Shown piece after piece: positions 14,133-29,342 of a stretch of 44,517 nt of DNA; position 1 is the stretch's first letter, and each line of letters opens with the position of its first letter. A program made the position numbers and the translations under genes. The notes under the pieces are model-generated. The model was not told the DNA's origin. It did no database searches and saw only the letters and a program-made list of their open reading frames with translations. This DNA comes from Escherichia phage vB_EcoM_SHAK7858. The stretch lies in the sequence record OR594183. One strand, 5' to 3'.

Positions 14133-14239
14133 GTAGTGTGCTAGAATAATTTTGCGCCTAGTGTCGCACACGAAAAGCGGGTGGTTCCCGTCTGGCGCAT
14201 TTCCTTTAACCAGTAACCTCTTAACCAAAGGATTAAAGA

Positions 14240-14656
14240 ATGAAACTTTCTGATTTTTATTACGAAGCGGAAGCCGAAAAGGGCGCACGTATGCCGATAC
14301 CGCTAAAAGACGGTACTGATTCCGGGGAATGGCTTAATGTTGTTTCTCCTGAGGCGGACGTTGCCGTTAAGGCTATGCGCGCGTTCACCCTTGCATACCG
14401 GGCAGTATTAGGGAAATTAAAACCGCTTCGTGATAAGTGCGAAGAGATGAAAGATTTCTCTGAATACAACCTGAAGATGGAAGACGCGGCGACGGACCTT
14501 AACCGTCAGTTAGCGATTGAATTGGTTAACGGGTGGAGCCTTGACGACGAATTCAATAAAGAGAATCTGAACACACTCCTGACGCAATATAAACGACTCG
14601 CGGAACTTGTTGTTGTGTTTCATAACGAACAACTGCACCAGCTACAGGAAAAGTAG
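14240..14656 (+). CDS. Tail assembly chaperone (gpG-like, putative)
   Basis: Position immediately upstream of the tape measure gene. Confidence 0.5.
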   Translation: MKLSDFYYEAEAEKGARMPIPLKDGTDSGEWLNVVSPEADVAVKAMRAFTLAYRAVLGKLKPLRDKCEEMKDFSEYNLKMEDAATDLNRQLAIELVNGWSLDDEFNKENLNTLLTQYKRLAELVVVFHNEQLHQLQEK

Positions 14657-24226: not shown

Positions 24227-24364
24227 CTACTCTTCTGATAACTTCTCCAGTACAAACGCCAGTTGCGCATTAGCGGCGTCTCTTTGCTGACGTAGCCGCA
24301 GAACCTCTTCTTCGAGTTCCTTGATACGTTTTTGCAATGCCGGAATTGGGGCTATGATGTTCAT
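24227..24364 (-). CDS. Hypothetical small coiled-coil protein (45 aa)
   Basis: Uninterrupted frame with ATGA start/stop overlap with the upstream Toprim gene; Leu/Glu/Arg-rich heptad-like sequence. Confidence 0.35.
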   Translation of the reverse strand: MNIIAPIPALQKRIKELEEEVLRLRQQRDAANAQLAFVLEKLSEE

Positions 24365-24876
24365 CTGGTAAATTTCCTCGCAAGATACGTTATTTCTTCT
24401 TCACAAAGTTCATCAAGGTCGTTAGATACAAATCCTCTGGTGAATGTTTTGCTGAACTTTAATCCAGCTTTATCATTGTCGCCAGCGCACACCCAGTCAT
24501 ACGGCAAAAGTGACATTTGCTGCCGTAGGTCTGTTGATATATTTGACCCCAGTGCGCTTACAGCATTGAACCCGCAATTCATCAAGGCTACGGCTTTGAA
24601 TATGCTTTCGGTAACAAATACCACCCCGCTTCCCGGCAAATACTCAAGCCCCCATAAACACGGCCTTGTTGTTCTGGTAAAGTACCGCGCGTCTTTAGGG
24701 TTTTTACAGTTCTTTTCGGCATGTGGTTTGTAATGCTGGTATCCGCGAAGCCTACCGTCAAACCCCCACAGGTAAAACGTAGCTACTCCAGGGGCTAAGA
24801 CTACCTGGAGACGGTCAGCGTCAAACCCACGCGCCAGCAGATGAGCTTTAAGTAGAAACTCTTCGAAATCCATCAT
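24361..24876 (-). CDS. Toprim-domain protein
   Basis: Conserved Glu (VFVTES) and DxD (AGDNDKAG) arrangement typical of the Toprim fold. Confidence 0.5.
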   Translation of the reverse strand: MMDFEEFLLKAHLLARGFDADRLQVVLAPGVATFYLWGFDGRLRGYQHYKPHAEKNCKNPKDARYFTRTTRPCLWGLEYLPGSGVVFVTESIFKAVALMNCGFNAVSALGSNISTDLRQQMSLLPYDWVCAGDNDKAGLKFSKTFTRGFVSNDLDELCEEEITYLARKFTR

Positions 24877-26303
24877 TTCTTACCTCGTCTCTTCATGTAA
24901 TTAAGCAACTCTTCCTGTACCGATTTCTTCTCGTCGGTACGCGCGGCGACAACCTCGTCCAGAGTGTCTTTAGCAACGATGTGATAAAGGAACACCGGGC
25001 GCTCGTGACCCGCCTGTTTCTGGCGGACTGGGCCTATGCGCTCAACAACCTGCAAATAGTGCTCAAGGTTCCAGCCTTGCGAGATGAACGCCAGATGATG
25101 ACCCCCGTCCTGTAAATTCAAACCATGCCCGGCTGACGCAGGATGCACGCATAAAATCTCGATTTCCCCACGGTTCCACGCTTCCATCTGCTTGTTCCCC
25201 CTAGCGCCTTTGGCGAACGCCTGTGCCTGTGGGAATCGCTTAAGGATACGCTCCAGTTCGTGTTTAAACTGATAGGCTACCAGCAACGGCGCACCCTGCA
25301 ACTCCTCAACAATCGACTCGAGCGCATCCAGTTTCGTGTCGTGCACTTTCTCCCAGTCTTTGGTCGCTTCGCCATCCGGCCCTGACACATACACGGCACC
25401 AGATGCAATCTGCAAGCACTTTGAGGTCTTCGCCGCAGCGTTAGCCGCTTCAACTTCCCCGCTCTCCAGTTCTGCGAATAACTTCTCCTCCATATCTATG
25501 TACGCCTGACGCGCTTTCTTCGGCAGGTCTATTTCCACCGGTACGATAACAGGCGCTTCACAACCAAACCACTCGGCAGGGTCTATGGTCAGGCTGATGT
25601 CTTTCATCTTCTGATGAATCTCATTATCCGCACCCGGTCGTGCATGATACTCGCGGGCCATAGCCGATTTACCTTTCTGTACCGAGTTAAACCAGCGGTC
25701 TGTGAATGCCGTATACGAAGAGCCGAGGCGCTCGCCAGCGTCGATAAACCAGTTCTGACCCCACAAGTCTTTGAGGCCGTTTGGTGACGGTGTGCCCGTC
25801 AGGTTGATGAAACGCTTAACCTTTCCGAACGCGACCTTGCTGAGCGCCTTTGCCCGCTTGCTACCACCCGAACGGCTGCGGAACGATTTAAGCTTCGTGC
25901 TTTCATCGGCAACGATAACCGTAAAAGGCCAGTCGTCTTTGCCGTAGTAGTCAATTAGCCACTCGATAACTTCGTAGTTAGTGCACACCACGTTAGCATC
26001 TGACTCCAGCGCCGCGATGCGGCGCTTCTCCGAACCAGTTGCATCTACGACACGCAGACAAGGGAATTGCCATTTCTCTTGTTCAGCGGGCCACGTACCG
26101 GACGCAACACGTAACGGGGCAAGGATTAACACGCGGTCCTCTTCCGTAAGCTGCCCGTTGCGGAACAGGCGGTTGAGCACCCACATAGTGGAGGAGGTTT
26201 TACCTCCCCCCATTCCGCACCAGATATTACAGCGCGGGTGTTGCAGCATGAACGAAGTCATGAGCTTCTGGTACTCTCGACGGATAAATTTAGACATGTT
26301 CAA
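24873..26303 (-). CDS. SNF2-family DNA-dependent ATPase/helicase
   Basis: Walker A GMGGGKT, DExx-type box VIVADESTKLK, LTGTP motif. Confidence 0.8.
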   Translation of the reverse strand: MNMSKFIRREYQKLMTSFMLQHPRCNIWCGMGGGKTSSTMWVLNRLFRNGQLTEEDRVLILAPLRVASGTWPAEQEKWQFPCLRVVDATGSEKRRIAALESDANVVCTNYEVIEWLIDYYGKDDWPFTVIVADESTKLKSFRSRSGGSKRAKALSKVAFGKVKRFINLTGTPSPNGLKDLWGQNWFIDAGERLGSSYTAFTDRWFNSVQKGKSAMAREYHARPGADNEIHQKMKDISLTIDPAEWFGCEAPVIVPVEIDLPKKARQAYIDMEEKLFAELESGEVEAANAAAKTSKCLQIASGAVYVSGPDGEATKDWEKVHDTKLDALESIVEELQGAPLLVAYQFKHELERILKRFPQAQAFAKGARGNKQMEAWNRGEIEILCVHPASAGHGLNLQDGGHHLAFISQGWNLEHYLQVVERIGPVRQKQAGHERPVFLYHIVAKDTLDEVVAARTDEKKSVQEELLNYMKRRGKK

Positions 26304-26494
26304 TCCTTAACGTAGAGTACCAGCTCTTTACGCCCGAACGCGGTAACGTTGCCTGTTACATCTTCGATAACCAGTTTACCGTTCGACTCGACGAACACCG
26401 TATCAACGGCAACAGGGCGACGTGTCTTAACGTTGAAAATCATGTCGCCAGGTACGATGTCACGTGCTGGTTTACGGTCATATTCGTGTTTCAT
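26300..26494 (-). CDS. Hypothetical protein (64 aa)
   Basis: ORF with SD aagga, first gene after the promoter at 26528-26556. Confidence 0.45.
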   Translation of the reverse strand: MKHEYDRKPARDIVPGDMIFNVKTRRPVAVDTVFVESNGKLVIEDVTGNVTAFGRKELVLYVKD

Positions 26495-26524
26495 TTCTCA
26501 ATTCCTTATATTGTTGGTGTAAGG

Positions 26525-26809
26525 CTAACTATAATAGTTCGCTATTAGGTCGTCAACCTGTTTAAACGAACCAACGACAAAAACATTTGCACCGCGTTTA
26601 CGGAATCTTTCATGCTCGCGTAACTGGTGGGGGTCAGGCTTCGTGTTTTCGTCTTTCTTAATCTCGACGAACCAGATGATACCGCCGGGGAGAATTACCA
26701 GCAGGTCCATGGCGGCTCGCCGGCCTTCAAATGCCATCTTGCGAACGAGGCCGCCGATGGCCTCGAATTGCTCTTTTGCGTATTTCTGTATTTTGCCTTC
26801 CGGGGTCAT
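26525..26809 (-). CDS. VRR-NUC domain nuclease
   Basis: PD-(D/E)XK-like pattern D...EIK (DLLVILPGGIIWFVEIKK) in a 94 aa protein adjacent to an SNF2 helicase. Confidence 0.7.
   Translation of the reverse strand: MTPEGKIQKYAKEQFEAIGGLVRKMAFEGRRAAMDLLVILPGGIIWFVEIKKDENTKPDPHQLREHERFRKRGANVFVVGSFKQVDDLIANYYS
26528..26556 (-). promoter_or_regulatory. Sigma70-like promoter (TTGACG-N17-TATAGT) with embedded palindrome ATAATAG-N4-CTATTAG
   Basis: Read on the minus strand; overlaps the 3' end of the VRR-NUC coding region. Confidence 0.45.
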
Positions 26810-26958
26810 GAGCGCAGAACCCAGGTTATAAACGCTCCTCCGAGAACGGCAACGCCAACAAACTTAAAGAACAGGCCGTAACAGAACATCGCAGCTATTC
26901 CCGCGCCGAGTAACAGTGCGAGCATGGTTACTATGGTCCTAAATACAAACATTGTCAT
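26806..26958 (-). CDS. Hypothetical small membrane protein (50 aa)
   Basis: Uninterrupted frame, SD gaggggtg, ATGA coupling to the VRR-NUC gene, two hydrophobic segments. Confidence 0.35.
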   Translation of the reverse strand: MTMFVFRTIVTMLALLLGAGIAAMFCYGLFFKFVGVAVLGGAFITWVLRS

Positions 26959-27040
26959 AATACACACCCCTCACGTTTCGTATGCTCAATCCCGCAGCGC
27001 GGACAGATTCGGCAGTCTTCTTCGTATAACCAGTAAATTT

Positions 27041-27172
27041 TCATTCCAGCACCCACAGATAAATTGCTACTAACATACCCAATACGGCGACCATCATGCC
27101 GTATCGGCCCTCGTGACAGTAGACAACTGCGGCGAATCCCGCCAGTACCGCGATAATCAGTTTACTTAGCAT
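27041..27172 (-). CDS. Hypothetical small membrane protein (43 aa)
   Basis: Uninterrupted frame overlapping the 3' end of the polymerase gene; hydrophobic. Confidence 0.3.
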   Translation of the reverse strand: MLSKLIIAVLAGFAAVVYCHEGRYGMMVAVLGMLVAIYLWVLE

Positions 27173-29342
27173 AGCGCTTCATCTCCGCACCTTCCGCCAC
27201 AAGAGGGAACCCCTCCGCCCATTCCGGTAATTCACACATCAACCGCTCAAGCTCTGCAACATTGTATTCCGGTAAATCAGGTGTCTCGCAGATAATCTCA
27301 TCGTGTACATGAAGCACAATATGGTAGCCGTTTGCCTCTACGTTCAGCAGGGCGTTAGCCAGCAAATCACGGCACAGCGCCTGAGTACAGTTTTCCACCA
27401 GTTTACCAGAGTAGGTGTACTGGAAACCCCACTGCCTGGTTAACTGATTTTCACCCTGATACTTGATGCGCACGTTAGTAGAAACTTTTCCGTCTTCGTC
27501 TGTCTCTTTCGACACGCTCAACCCGACGCCCGGGTATGACATAACGCGACCTGACGGCAACGTCATGCGCAACCACCAACCAGCGACTTTGTTGCCGTTG
27601 TTGTCTGTTTCTACGTTGCGAGAAAACTTAACCCCGCGAGGGCCAGCGGTGAACTCTTTCCCCGGATTACGGATTGCTGCCATAGCTGCGTCTTCAATAT
27701 CACGCCAGAAAGCTACTGTTTCCGGGTGGGACTCCCGCCACATACGCTTAATTGCGTCGCATGTACGCCAGACTTTCTTATCAAGAATATATGATGGTCG
27801 GTCATCCTTTTCACCCGGACGCGGTGGTCGCTTGGCTTCCTGAATACGCGCCCACTCGTACCCGCGCGCGGTAGCGGCCCAGATGTGGTCAGGGAAAGTA
27901 CCGTCCATTGTTTTAGCCATATCAACCAGGTCAAGGCCGAGGTTTTTAGCGAACTGAACGAAAGCACCGACACCGCCCGCGTATCCGAGGCCCAATTCGC
28001 AGGCTTTACCAATCTGGCGTAAGTCTTTACGTTCTTTCTTAATGTAATCCGGCTCCATGCCGAACATCTTACCTGCTGTTACGCAGTAAATATCCAGTCC
28101 GGCGCGGAACGTATCTAGCGCGGTTTCTTCGCCCGCCAGCCACGCAAGACCGCGGCCTTCGACGTTAGAGTAATCGGCGATGACAAACTTATGTCCGGCT
28201 TCCGGGATAATGCAGCTACGAACGGTCGACGCCGTCAGCTTGGCTACGTCAAATCGGCGGTGCGCCCGGCCCTTAAGTAACGCTGAAATGCCTTTATCCA
28301 GTTCATCATCGTGATAGTACCCACGCGCCAGGTTCTGTGGCTGGAAGCCTTTACCCGCGAACCGTAACGTACGCTTTGCCCCACCGTACTGGATACAACC
28401 GCGGCGTCGGTCGTCCGACGAGCGGCCTAACAGCAGCGGGTTATATTTCGTGGACGCTGTTGACGCGGCCCCGAGGCGCATTTCGATAATCATCCGGGCG
28501 TCGTCCGGTAAATCATCATCTGCCAACAGGTCGTTAAGCGTCGACTTCTGTGCATTGTGTATGCGGTGCGCGGGCGCAAGTTCACGCAGAATCGGAAGGA
28601 AGTCTTTACCGGTAAGCGAGCCGCCGTATTTACGTTGAGCTTCTTCCTGTAACTGTGCCTTGTGCTTCTCTACGGCTTCAATCGCGGCTTCCGCCAGTGC
28701 GACGTCAACCTTAAATCCGCGGTCGTTGATTAACTGGTCAAGTTCCAGTACACGGTCTTCGAACTCGGAGTTACCCCAACGCGGCAGCTTATGGAAGACT
28801 TCACGCATCGCAGTGATGTCGCTCACGGCGTACCTGATGAACATCGCCCACTCGTCAGGGTGAGTTTCTGCGGTGTAGCGGCGGATTTTGTAGTTCTTCG
28901 GCGTCGGTTTAGAGAAACGCTTAATCAGAGCCTTGCCGCGTTTATCTTTCGCGTTGTCTGCAGACACGCCCAGCACTTCGCACAGCGCATCAAGAGAACC
29001 CGGCAGCGCGTGACGGAACGCCCAAATCATAGTATCAATGGTGTTACTTACCGGAATATCAAAGTCCCAGCAGTGTTTCATGATTAGGCGATCGAAAAGT
29101 CCACCGTTGTGCCACACCATCTTGATGCGGCTGTTGGGCTTAACAAGGCGGCGCAGTGCGCGGTGTAAATCCCCCGGCATGTCGCTGCCGTCGGTGCAAT
29201 CCCATACCCGCACAGGTTCGTCGTCAAAAGCATATGTACAGATAAGCACTTCGGTTGACGGGTGTTCGGCGTAAGCGTAAGAACCGACTTTCTTCAAATC
29301 GGCTTCTGAGAATGTTTCAAAGTCTAAGAACAGGTAACTCAT
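27162..29342 (-). CDS. Family A DNA polymerase with N-terminal 3'-5' exonuclease domain
   Basis: Exo I FLDFETFS; polymerase motif A DYSNVEGR, motif B K..ELGLGYAGG, motif C HVHDEI. Confidence 0.9.
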   Translation of the reverse strand: MSYLFLDFETFSEADLKKVGSYAYAEHPSTEVLICTYAFDDEPVRVWDCTDGSDMPGDLHRALRRLVKPNSRIKMVWHNGGLFDRLIMKHCWDFDIPVSNTIDTMIWAFRHALPGSLDALCEVLGVSADNAKDKRGKALIKRFSKPTPKNYKIRRYTAETHPDEWAMFIRYAVSDITAMREVFHKLPRWGNSEFEDRVLELDQLINDRGFKVDVALAEAAIEAVEKHKAQLQEEAQRKYGGSLTGKDFLPILRELAPAHRIHNAQKSTLNDLLADDDLPDDARMIIEMRLGAASTASTKYNPLLLGRSSDDRRRGCIQYGGAKRTLRFAGKGFQPQNLARGYYHDDELDKGISALLKGRAHRRFDVAKLTASTVRSCIIPEAGHKFVIADYSNVEGRGLAWLAGEETALDTFRAGLDIYCVTAGKMFGMEPDYIKKERKDLRQIGKACELGLGYAGGVGAFVQFAKNLGLDLVDMAKTMDGTFPDHIWAATARGYEWARIQEAKRPPRPGEKDDRPSYILDKKVWRTCDAIKRMWRESHPETVAFWRDIEDAAMAAIRNPGKEFTAGPRGVKFSRNVETDNNGNKVAGWWLRMTLPSGRVMSYPGVGLSVSKETDEDGKVSTNVRIKYQGENQLTRQWGFQYTYSGKLVENCTQALCRDLLANALLNVEANGYHIVLHVHDEIICETPDLPEYNVAELERLMCELPEWAEGFPLVAEGAEMKRYAK

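What the first reader, a model, noticed from the sequence alone, without database searches (positions are those of the whole stretch)
26806..27172. Chain of three translationally coupled micro-ORFs between the polymerase and VRR-NUC genes
Between the polymerase stop and the VRR-NUC start are three overlapping minus-strand ORFs joined by ATGA junctions: a 43-aa hydrophobic peptide (27041-27172), a 29-aa Cys-pair peptide (CRICPRCG, about 26955-27044) and a 50-aa hydrophobic peptide (26806-26958). The unbroken coupling from polymerase through to VRR-NUC argues that they are translated rather than random frames.
Basis: seen in the sequence. Interest (0 to 1): 0.4.

Follow-up and report, generated by a model that had tools for sequence, protein, structure and literature searches.

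The report
Three tiny conserved phage genes
Between the DNA polymerase and a DNA-cutting enzyme gene of this E. coli phage lie three real but very small genes: a 29-residue cysteine-rich peptide kept by nearly every phage of the group, and two optional membrane peptides. All three are already listed as "hypothetical proteins" in related genomes, so this is a sound but ordinary finding.

Summary
On the minus strand, ORF1 (27172-27041, 43 aa) starts 8 nt before the polymerase stop. ORF2 (27044-26955, 29 aa), ORF3 (26958-26806, 50 aa) and VRR-NUC (26809-26525) follow, each joined by an ATGA overlap.

The window is a Kagunavirus-like phage (Guernseyvirinae). All three ORFs match PHROG families of unknown function and are annotated as hypothetical proteins in close relatives.

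Across 57 related loci the frames, lengths and junctions are kept. dN/dS is 0.22, 0.07 and 0.18 for ORF1-3, similar to flanking genes (0.08-0.13). Off-frames and antisense frames give 0.6-2.9. They are therefore protein-coding.

The three are not equivalent:
- ORF2 is core: 57/57 loci, and 446 GenBank phage records against 451 with a close VRR-NUC.
- ORF1 (223 records) and ORF3 (120) are optional. In some relatives they are deleted, replaced, or joined by HNH homing endonucleases.

ORF2 keeps at least four of five metal-ligand candidates (C11, C14, C17, H21, C27) in every locus, so it is probably a zinc-binding knuckle. ORF1 and ORF3 look like two-helix membrane hairpins. ORF2 and VRR-NUC lack a Shine-Dalgarno sequence, which fits termination-reinitiation. 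Function is unknown and I found no homologues outside the subfamily. Interest is low to moderate.

The parts
27162..29342 (-). Family A DNA polymerase (726 aa). Its last codons (..R Y A K stop) overlap the first codons of ORF1.
   Evidence: Pfam DNA_pol_A 4.7e-16 and DNA_pol_A_exo1. ORF list. Annotated as DNA polymerase I in relatives.
27183..27186 (-). GGAG Shine-Dalgarno for ORF1, 10 nt upstream of its ATG and inside the polymerase coding sequence.
   Evidence: Sequence. Conserved in most relatives. SD:anti-SD pairing -6.6 kcal/mol against a background mean of -2.7.
27041..27172 (-). ORF1: 43-aa hydrophobic micro-protein, predicted two-helix hairpin (helices 2-18 and 23-42, turn CHEG). An accessory gene of the subfamily.
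   Evidence: phrog_10404, 3.6e-29. dN/dS 0.215. AF2 pLDDT 82. Found in 223 GenBank phage records. Replaced by a 7-codon stub fused to ORF2 in some Jerseyvirus genomes.
26955..27044 (-). ORF2: 29-aa Cys-rich micro-protein. Ligand candidates are C11 (27014-27012), C14 (27005-27003), C17 (26996-26994), H21 (26984-26982) and C27 (26966-26964). Core gene of Guernseyvirinae and a probable zinc knuckle.
   Evidence: phrog_38225, 2.7e-21. Present in 57/57 loci. 446 GenBank records against 451 with VRR-NUC at 60% identity or more. dN/dS 0.074, with 22 of 28 third positions variable. At least 4 of 5 ligand candidates kept in every locus.
26967..26972 (-). GAGGGG Shine-Dalgarno inside the end of ORF2 (codons R-E-G), 8 nt before the ORF3 ATG. 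In relatives without ORF3 the same motif precedes the VRR-NUC start.
   Evidence: Pairing -8.8 kcal/mol.
26806..26958 (-). ORF3: 50-aa hydrophobic micro-protein with two hydrophobic segments (about 8-31 and 33-48) and small-residue motifs GAGIAA and GVAVLGGA. An accessory gene.
   Evidence: phrog_14925, 1.9e-33. dN/dS 0.182. About 100 database clusters, nearly all 50 aa; where a long contig is available it is about 41-46 kb, phage-sized. 120 GenBank records. Hydropathy.
26525..26809 (-). VRR-NUC nuclease (94 aa). Its start overlaps the ORF3 stop (ATGA) and it has no Shine-Dalgarno of its own in this arrangement.
   Evidence: phrog_93 5.8e-30 and phrog_5702 (Holliday junction resolvase) 2.4e-17. 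SD pairing -3.1 kcal/mol, at background level. Annotated VRR-NUC or Holliday junction resolvase in relatives.

Best explanation
These are three genuine protein-coding micro-genes in the replication and recombination operon of a Kagunavirus-like phage. They are read from the same minus-strand message as the polymerase and VRR-NUC.

Expression (inferred). ORF1 and ORF3 start on their own Shine-Dalgarno sequences, which lie inside the preceding gene. ORF2 and VRR-NUC have none and are most likely started by ribosomes that terminate at the overlapping TGA of ATGA and reinitiate. In this arrangement, VRR-NUC synthesis would then depend on translation of ORF3.

The products differ in standing.
- ORF2 is the invariant core of the interval. 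It is a soluble 29-residue peptide that most likely folds around one zinc ion as a small beta-hairpin knuckle (CPRCG turn), using four of C11/C14/C17/H21/C27. It probably acts in trans as a small partner or regulator of a replication or recombination protein, or of a host target.
- ORF1 and ORF3 are optional two-helix membrane hairpins. They are lineage-specific cargo in a recombination hot spot that also takes up an unrelated 64-aa gene and HNH homing endonucleases.

Shown: the ORFs exist, are conserved, and are under purifying selection in these frames. ORF2 is universal and ORF1/ORF3 are facultative. The Shine-Dalgarno pattern is as described.
Inferred: translation, reinitiation, zinc binding, membrane insertion and any cellular role.
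For: - Coordinates and junctions.
- Taxon: 96.5% identity to Escherichia phage vB_EcoS-22664BS2 (Kagunavirus), where all three are annotated CDSs of 132, 90 and 153 nt. The same holds in Schulenburg and fPoEco01.
- PHROG families 10404, 38225 and 14925.
- Selection: dN/dS 0.215, 0.074 and 0.182 against 0.08-0.13 for neighbours. Off-frames give 0.76-2.9 and antisense 0.64-1.05. Frames are open in 19/19 distinct canonical relatives for ORF1 and ORF3.
- Prevalence: ORF2 in 57/57 loci, with ORF1 and ORF3 variable, across about ten arrangements with polymerase-to-VRR-NUC gaps of 89-1125 nt. GenBank counts are 446, 223 and 120 against 451 for VRR-NUC.
- Deletion variants keep ORF2 by fusing it to the ORF1 start (MLSKLII-YYFHEEDC...).
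- Ligand pattern.
- AF2: a beta-hairpin for ORF2 at low confidence (pLDDT 57) and a helical hairpin for ORF1 (pLDDT 82).
- Shine-Dalgarno energies. Junction conservation.
- ATGA overlaps support termination-reinitiation coupling in bacteria (PMC6728339), and such pairs often encode subunits of complexes (PMC10666635).
Against: - There is no direct evidence of translation: no ribosome profiling or proteomics exists for this phage group in the sources I searched.
- Metal binding is inferred from residue conservation only. The AF2 model of ORF2 is low confidence. No Pfam, NCBIfam or PDB match is significant.
- C11 is replaced in 6 of 57 loci and C17 in one, so the ligand set is not fixed.
- ORF1's hydrophobic segments are 14-17 residues, short for membrane spans.
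- No interaction partner is identified. The only fusion hint for VRR-NUC is one distant locus (L085) with an N-terminal Cys/His extension.
- 4-nt overlaps are generic in this genome, so coupling says little about function.
Confidence: 0.8

Rival explanations
1. The ORFs are chance open frames in a non-coding spacer between the polymerase and VRR-NUC and make no functional product.
For: They are very short. ORF2 is left unannotated in 5 of the 8 GenBank relatives I inspected. None has a known domain.
Against: Complete tiling occurs in only 5/5000 shuffles. Length, starts and junctions are conserved. dN/dS of 0.07-0.22 is seen only in these frames. Third-position variation dominates (ORF2: 8, 7 and 22 variable columns at codon positions 1, 2 and 3).
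Confidence: 0.03
2. The ORFs matter only as a translational relay. Ribosomes must read through the interval to deliver VRR-NUC expression, and the peptide sequences themselves are irrelevant.
For: ORF2 and VRR-NUC lack Shine-Dalgarno pairing above background. Overlap junctions are conserved in every arrangement. The minimal arrangement is a single 36-codon ORF bridging the polymerase stop to the VRR-NUC start.
Against: A pure relay would not constrain amino acids, yet dN/dS is 0.07-0.22 and ORF2's Cys/His pattern is kept. ORF2 stays conserved when other genes (ORF3, the 64-aa gene, HNH) separate it from VRR-NUC. Relatives without ORF3 use the GAGGGG motif directly for VRR-NUC, so a relay is not needed.
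Confidence: 0.07
3. The conserved 59-nt core of ORF2 is a nucleic-acid element, such as an RNA structure, a promoter or a homing-endonuclease target, rather than a peptide gene. This would explain its 96.6% identity in otherwise diverged Salmonella phages.
For: A 59-nt block (window 27023-26965) is the only megablast match in many Jerseyvirus genomes. HNH endonucleases insert immediately next to it. Its 3' end carries the Shine-Dalgarno for the next gene.
Against: Synonymous divergence in ORF2 is as high as in neighbours (pS 0.38, with 22 of 28 third positions variable). The RNA folds no better than shuffles (z = +1.14). There is no Rfam family here. Promoter- and terminator-like sites occur at chance frequency.
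Confidence: 0.05
4. The real gene lies on the opposite (plus) strand, for example the 49-aa ORF at 26924-27073 or the 84-aa ORF at 26627-26881.
For: Plus-strand ORFs of 30-84 aa overlap the region. One antisense stretch stays open in 16 of 19 relatives.
Against: Antisense dN/dS is 0.64-1.05. The whole block from about 35.5 kb to 24.4 kb is transcribed on the minus strand, judged from gene orientation. No relative annotates the plus-strand ORFs at ORF1-3. The only opposite-strand CDS in the loci I inspected lies downstream of VRR-NUC, in MZ234010.
Confidence: 0.02
5. ORF2 is a decaying remnant of the zinc finger of a homing HNH endonuclease that once sat in this hot spot.
For: HNH genes and a decayed 43-aa HNH stub occur at exactly this position in relatives. 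CxxCG-type motifs are typical of HNH zinc fingers (general knowledge).
Against: ORF2 is universal and has the strongest purifying selection of the three. It is always 29-36 aa. It shows no HMM similarity to HNH families. The real HNH stub in L054 has an unrelated sequence.
Confidence: 0.03

Closest known systems
PHROG families phrog_10404, phrog_38225 and phrog_14925 (unknown function), and the corresponding 'hypothetical protein' CDSs of Kagunavirus/Jerseyvirus genomes such as MZ234010 22664BS2_057/056/055
   Same: Full-length matches (E 3.6e-29, 2.7e-21 and 1.9e-33). Same lengths, same order and same overlaps.
   Different: Nothing differs. These are the same genes. The families carry no functional annotation.
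Translationally coupled overlapping gene pairs (ATGA, termination-reinitiation), as described in PMC6728339 and PMC10666635
   Same: Co-directional genes with a -4 nt overlap. The downstream cistrons ORF2 and VRR-NUC lack a Shine-Dalgarno.
   Different: Coupling is not measured here. ORF1 uses an 11-nt overlap with its own GGAG, and ORF3 has a strong SD, so only part of the chain need depend on reinitiation.
Zinc knuckles and zinc-ribbon knuckles (retroviral-type zf-CCHC CX2CX4HX4C; CPxCG knuckles such as that of COX5B)
   Same: A CPRCG turn preceded by an aromatic-rich strand. C-x2-C...H...C spans the same total length as a CCHC knuckle. AF2 gives a beta-hairpin centred on the knuckle.
   Different: The spacing is CX2CX3HX5C, with an extra upstream Cys. 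No significant Pfam or PDB sequence match (best E 0.2-0.3). Metal binding is untested. The peptide is free-standing, not a domain.
Small early or middle phage proteins encoded just after the DNA polymerase gene, such as T7 genes 5.3-5.9 (from my own knowledge, not tested here)
   Same: A cluster of very short ORFs directly downstream of the polymerase in the replication operon. They are lineage-specific and variable between relatives.
   Different: No sequence relationship. The T7 proteins are soluble host-takeover factors, whereas two of the three here are hydrophobic.
Small two-TM phage membrane proteins (class II holins/pinholins; superinfection-exclusion proteins such as T4 Imm)
   Same: ORF1 and ORF3 are short two-helix hydrophobic hairpins.
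   Different: They are not in a lysis cassette. The PHROG holin match is only E 0.37. They are much shorter, at 43 and 50 aa. No functional data exist.

Membership tests
PHROG phrog_10404 / phrog_38225 / phrog_14925 | Full-length significant match to the family profile | tested here: met
   E 3.6e-29 (1-43 of 43), 2.7e-21 (profile 5-32 of 36) and 1.9e-33 (1-50 of 50).
Protein-coding gene (as opposed to a chance ORF) | Purifying selection specific to the proposed frame, with conserved length and start codon in relatives | tested here: met
   dN/dS 0.215, 0.074 and 0.182. Other frames 0.76-2.9 and antisense 0.64-1.05. Starts and junctions conserved.
Protein-coding gene (as opposed to a chance ORF) | Direct detection of translation or of the peptide | not testable with these tools
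   No ribosome-profiling or proteomic data available. The literature search returned only genome descriptions.
Termination-reinitiation coupled gene pair | Co-directional genes with overlapping stop and start (ATGA or TGATG) | tested here: met
   ATGA at ORF1/ORF2, ORF2/ORF3 and ORF3/VRR-NUC, conserved in relatives.
Termination-reinitiation coupled gene pair | Downstream translation depends on upstream translation | not testable with these tools
   Indirect only. ORF2 (-3.7) and VRR-NUC (-3.1 kcal/mol) have SD pairing at background level (mean -2.7).
zf-CCHC zinc knuckle (PF00098) | CX2CX4HX4C spacing and a match to the Pfam model | tested here: not met
   Spacing is CX2CX3HX5C. No zf-CCHC hit at E up to 10.
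Zinc-binding mini-protein (generic) | Four conserved Cys/His ligands | tested here: met
   Every one of 57 loci keeps at least 4 of C11, C14, C17, H21 and C27. C14 and C27 are invariant.
Zinc-binding mini-protein (generic) | Stoichiometric metal binding | not testable with these tools
   Needs the peptide and metal analysis.
Holin / pinholin | Significant family match and location in a lysis cassette next to the endolysin | tested here: not met
   Best holin match phrog_1527 at E 0.37. The genes sit between the polymerase and VRR-NUC in the replication block.
Type I toxin-like hydrophobic peptides (TisB) | Match to the family model | tested here: not met
   PF13939 at E 0.64, 11 bits against a cut-off of 25.
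Anti-phage defence components (PADLOC) | Match to any PADLOC model | tested here: not met
   No hits at E up to 1.

The most novel reading that the evidence does not exclude
ORF2 is an unrecognised essential 29-residue zinc-knuckle subunit or cofactor of the Guernseyvirinae replication and recombination machinery. Candidate partners are the VRR-NUC resolvase it originally abutted, or the Toprim-only 171-aa primase-like protein, which lacks a zinc-binding domain of its own. ORF2 would then be a core gene that many genome annotations omit. ORF1 and ORF3 would be optional membrane partners. Rare ORF1::ORF2 and ORF2::ORF3 fusions in metagenomic contigs are compatible with this, but they may be sequencing errors or an artefact of gene callers picking up only the longer fused ORFs.
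Probability: 0.15. Interest if true: 0.5.

Novelty: already known. Interest (0 to 1): 0.25.

Why it matters
The practical value is mainly for annotation. A 29-codon gene is under stronger purifying selection than its neighbours and is present in essentially every Guernseyvirinae genome. Yet it is left unannotated in 5 of the 8 GenBank relatives I inspected. Gene callers evidently skip it because it is only 90 nt and overlaps a neighbouring gene at both ends.

Guernseyvirinae phages are widely proposed for Salmonella and E. coli biocontrol and therapy (many of the papers), so a universal gene of unknown function is worth recording.

Biologically, the interval shows how a replication operon tolerates a hot spot for small cargo genes and homing endonucleases while keeping translation continuous. 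It does not point to a new kind of system.

Tried and rejected
- **Protein homologue search for ORF2.** I reran it with the 68-aa stop-free extension of the frame. This found only 9 proteins, all gene-caller artefacts or frameshift fusions from the same phages.
- **Exhaustive HMMER search** of the 33-aa GTG-extended ORF2 against 1.84 billion representatives gave only 2 hits, both the same family. No distant relatives or domain fusions were found.
- **ORF1 and ORF3 searches** returned near-identical proteins of essentially the same length, from phage-sized (about 41-46 kb) or shorter contigs.
- **Family and structure libraries.** Pfam, NCBIfam, PADLOC and PDB sequence searches gave nothing significant.
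- **AF2 of ORF2** reached only pLDDT 57, so I did not run fold searches, which would be meaningless at that confidence.
- **RNA-level explanations** were rejected: fold z = +1.14, no Rfam hit in the region, and promoter/terminator scans at chance level.
- **Rosetta-stone idea that ORF2 is a split-off N-terminal zinc ribbon of VRR-NUC.** Only 1 of 31 distant loci (L085) has such an extension, so it remains a lead, not evidence.
- **Recurring small TM peptides** ending in ..LE(L/F)Q between the polymerase and VRR-NUC in a few distant relatives (L067, L083, L085) are too few and too short to claim homology with ORF1.
- **Leader-peptide or Mu Com-like activator of VRR-NUC.** This is disfavoured because ORF2 stays conserved when one to three other genes separate it from VRR-NUC.
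Full report
**What is there**

I read the minus strand of window 26500-27500 and listed the ORFs.
- The polymerase gene (29342..27162, 726 aa) ends with ..R-Y-A-K-TAA.
- ORF1 starts inside those last codons (ATGCTAAGTAA; ATG at 27172) and runs 43 codons to a TGA at 27043-27041.
- That TGA is part of ATGA, whose ATG (27044) starts ORF2 (29 codons, MKIYWLYEEDCRICPRCGIEHTKREGCVL).
- ORF2 ends in another ATGA (26958-26955), which starts ORF3 (50 codons).
- ORF3 ends in a third ATGA (26809-26806), which starts the VRR-NUC gene (94 aa).

The only imprecision is that the polymerase/ORF1 junction is an 11-nt overlap, not ATGA. Complete same-strand tiling of this stretch occurred in 5 of 5000 dinucleotide-preserving shuffles. 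Four-nucleotide overlaps are common throughout this genome, so the junction style is not special.

**Where the window comes from**

The region is 96.5% identical to Escherichia phage vB_EcoS-22664BS2, a Kagunavirus of the subfamily Guernseyvirinae. It matches 356 phage records, almost all Salmonella or Escherichia phages of the genera Jerseyvirus and Kagunavirus.

In 22664BS2, Schulenburg and fPoEco01, three CDSs of 132, 90 and 153 nt are annotated as hypothetical proteins at exactly these positions. The three peptides match PHROG families 10404, 38225 and 14925, all of unknown function, over their full length. As annotated features they are therefore already known.

The surrounding minus-strand block is a replication and recombination module. 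In order it contains:
- an AAA_25 helicase-like protein
- a DUF2800/PD-(D/E)XK nuclease
- an Enc34-type ssDNA-binding protein
- the family A polymerase
- the three micro-ORFs
- VRR-NUC
- a 64-aa protein
- an SNF2 helicase
- a Toprim-only protein

**Are they genes?**

I fetched 79 loci from IMG/VR by VRR-NUC similarity and 8 GenBank loci. I then mapped the polymerase C-terminus, ORF1-3, VRR-NUC and the 64-aa gene by tblastn. Fifty-seven loci, including the window, are Guernseyvirinae.

Pooled Nei-Gojobori estimates:

| Gene | dN/dS |
|---|---|
| ORF1 | 0.215 |
| ORF2 | 0.074 |
| ORF3 | 0.182 |
| Polymerase C-terminus | 0.11 |
| VRR-NUC | 0.13 |
| 64-aa gene | 0.076 |

- The other two sense frames of the same segments give 0.76-2.9, and the antisense frames 0.64-1.05.
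- Variable columns concentrate at third codon positions. For ORF2 the counts are 8, 7 and 22 of 28 at positions 1, 2 and 3.
- Lengths are constant at 43, 29 and 50 aa. In 19 distinct canonical relatives the ORF1 and ORF3 frames are open in all 19, and the longer stop-free stretch that contains ORF2 in 17. ORF2 itself was recovered in all 57 loci.
- Start codons and overlap junctions are conserved.

The estimates are pooled pairwise values on related sequences, not a phylogenetic model, but the contrast between frames is large.

**Nucleic-acid alternatives**

Many Jerseyvirus genomes match the window only in a 59-nt block inside ORF2 at 96.6% identity, which suggested a nucleic-acid element. 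Several results argue against it:
- ORF2's synonymous divergence is as high as in its neighbours (pS 0.38).
- The RNA folds no better than shuffles (z = +1.14).
- Rfam finds nothing here.
- Promoter- and terminator-like matches are at chance frequency.

The block is conserved because the peptide is conserved, and because its end carries the GAGGGG Shine-Dalgarno sequence for the next gene.

**The three ORFs are not equivalent**

The polymerase-to-VRR-NUC interval has about ten arrangements.

| Gap (nt) | Content |
|---|---|
| ~89 | A single 33-36 codon ORF: the first seven codons of ORF1 fused in frame to the ORF2 core (MLSKLII-YYFHEEDCRICPRCGIEHTKREGCIDEYA). Its end overlaps the VRR-NUC start. 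|
| ~205 | ORF1 + ORF2 |
| 236 | Fusion ORF + ORF3 |
| 352 | ORF1 + ORF2 + ORF3 (the window's arrangement and the most common, 20 loci) |
| 394 | ORF1 + ORF2 + an unrelated 64-aa gene |
| 543 | ORF1 + ORF2 + the 64-aa gene + ORF3 |
| 693, 884 | An added 165-aa HNH endonuclease right after ORF2 or after the 64-aa gene |
| 729, 1125 | Another HNH-type gene between the polymerase and ORF1 |

ORF2 is present in all 57 loci. In GenBank phages, tblastn finds these record counts:

| Protein | Records |
|---|---|
| ORF2 (60% identity or more) | 446 |
| ORF1 | 223 |
| ORF3 | 120 |
| VRR-NUC (60% identity or more) | 451 |

ORF2 is therefore a core gene of the subfamily. ORF1 and ORF3 are accessory, and the interval is a hot spot for small cargo genes and homing endonucleases. 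ORF2 is unannotated in 5 of the 8 GenBank relatives I inspected.

More distant relatives keep the polymerase-to-VRR-NUC order but lack all three ORFs. They have either an intergenic hairpin or other small genes in the gap.

**What the peptides look like**

ORF2 is hydrophilic, with an aromatic-rich N-terminus and the motif EEDCRICPRCGIEHTKREGC.
- Among 57 loci, C14 and C27 are invariant.
- C11 is replaced in six loci (R or F), C17 in one (Y) and H21 in one (Q).
- Every sequence keeps at least four of the five candidate ligands.
- The CPRCG turn is a typical zinc-knuckle signature. The best, non-significant PDB match aligns it with the zinc-ribbon knuckle of COX5B (E 0.3).
- AF2 gives a beta-hairpin centred on the knuckle, but at pLDDT 57.
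- The spacing CX2CX3HX5C is not that of the zf-CCHC family, and no Pfam or NCBIfam model matches.

I therefore call it a probable zinc-binding knuckle, not a member of a named family.

ORF1 is predicted as a helical hairpin (helices 2-18 and 23-42, turn CHEG, pLDDT 82). ORF3 has two hydrophobic segments separated by a single lysine and is rich in small-residue motifs. Neither matches holins, type I toxins or defence proteins. Neither lies in a lysis cassette.

**Homologues elsewhere**

- An exhaustive HMMER search of ORF2 against 1.84 billion representative proteins found only two members of the same family.
- Word-indexed searches of ORF1 and ORF3 found near-identical proteins of essentially the same length (43 and 50 aa). 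Where long contigs are available they are about 41-46 kb, phage-sized.
- The few longer hits are frameshift fusions of ORF1 to ORF2 or of ORF2 to ORF3 from metagenome assemblies. They may be real variants or sequencing errors. They are enriched in the hit list because gene callers only pick ORF2 up when it is extended.

**How it most likely works**

Shine-Dalgarno pairing energies (background mean -2.7, 10th percentile -5.9 kcal/mol):

| Start | Pairing (kcal/mol) | Motif |
|---|---|---|
| ORF1 | -6.6 | GGAG |
| ORF2 | -3.7 | none |
| ORF3 | -8.8 | GAGGGG |
| VRR-NUC | -3.1 | none |

ORF1 and ORF3 can therefore initiate on their own sites, which lie inside the preceding gene. ORF2 and VRR-NUC most plausibly rely on reinitiation at the ATGA overlap, a mechanism documented for such overlaps in bacteria (PMC6728339).

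In relatives without ORF3, the same GAGGGG sits in front of VRR-NUC. Insertion of ORF3 thus appears to have taken over that site and left VRR-NUC dependent on coupling.

The peptide functions are inferred only.
- ORF2 is probably a zinc-stabilised micro-protein acting in trans on a replication or recombination protein, or on a host target. Its universal retention, its place in the operon, and the tendency of overlapping pairs to encode complex subunits (PMC10666635) point that way.
- ORF1 and ORF3 are probably optional membrane micro-proteins with a host-interaction role.
- A leader-peptide or Com-like role specific to VRR-NUC is unlikely, because ORF2 stays conserved when other genes separate it from VRR-NUC.

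**Verdict**

- The genes are already catalogued as hypothetical proteins, and the type of feature (small overlapping genes in a phage early operon) is ordinary.
- What this analysis adds: ORF2 is a core, often unannotated, probable metal-binding micro-gene. ORF1 and ORF3 are accessory. The interval is a hot spot for homing endonucleases.
- Interest is low to moderate (0.25).

Noticed in passing
window 14151-14215 (+): Rfam int-alpA RNA (RF02996) match just above the gathering score (36.6 against 35.8 bits, E 4.7e-4, full model length), in the intergenic stretch before the ORF at 14240.
   Followed up: no
L045, L052, L006 (after ORF2); L054; L035 and L012 (between the polymerase and ORF1): The polymerase-to-VRR-NUC interval of relatives is a hot spot for HNH homing endonucleases. 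A 165-aa HNH gene starts at the ATGA after ORF2 or after the 64-aa gene. L054 keeps a decayed 43-aa stub of it. Different 171-aa and 231-aa HNH-type genes sit between the polymerase and ORF1.
   Followed up: partly
L005 (Salmonella phage horsemountain), polymerase ORF 49-2478: The polymerase carries a large internal insertion that looks like an intein. A related record, S142, annotates its polymerase as 'intein harbouring protein'. The window's polymerase (726 aa) has none.
   Followed up: no
window 24361-24876 (-): A 171-aa protein with only a Toprim_2 domain (E 9.7e-5) and no zinc-binding domain, at the end of the replication operon. I mention it as a speculative partner for the Cys-rich ORF2 peptide.
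   Followed up: no
L057-L062, between the polymerase stop and the VRR-NUC start: More distant relatives (VRR-NUC 45-53% identical) have no micro-ORF chain. They have a conserved intergenic box TATAGTATTGTATTAT followed by a hairpin GGTGATGG...CCATCACC, sometimes with one unrelated small ORF after it. This looks like a promoter/operator or terminator element.
   Followed up: no
L085 1315-1821: One distant VRR-NUC homologue carries an N-terminal extension of about 60 aa with CxxxH...CxxC (MLKRYEDKTRCPEGH...FCKECG). It is preceded by a 37-aa hydrophobic ORF ending LELQC. It is the only one of 31 distant loci with such an extension.
   Followed up: partly
P0001-P0009 (metagenome and Logan contigs): Database proteins of 68-79 aa are ORF1::ORF2 fusions with frameshifts at seven different positions, or ORF2::ORF3 fusions. 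They are either natural frameshift variants or assembly errors. They are the only form in which ORF2 entered the protein database.
   Followed up: partly
window 26300-26494 (-): The 64-aa gene downstream of VRR-NUC (phrog_4879, unknown function) has the same distribution as ORF2. It is present in all 57 Guernseyvirinae loci and absent from the distant relatives, with very low dN/dS (0.076).
   Followed up: no
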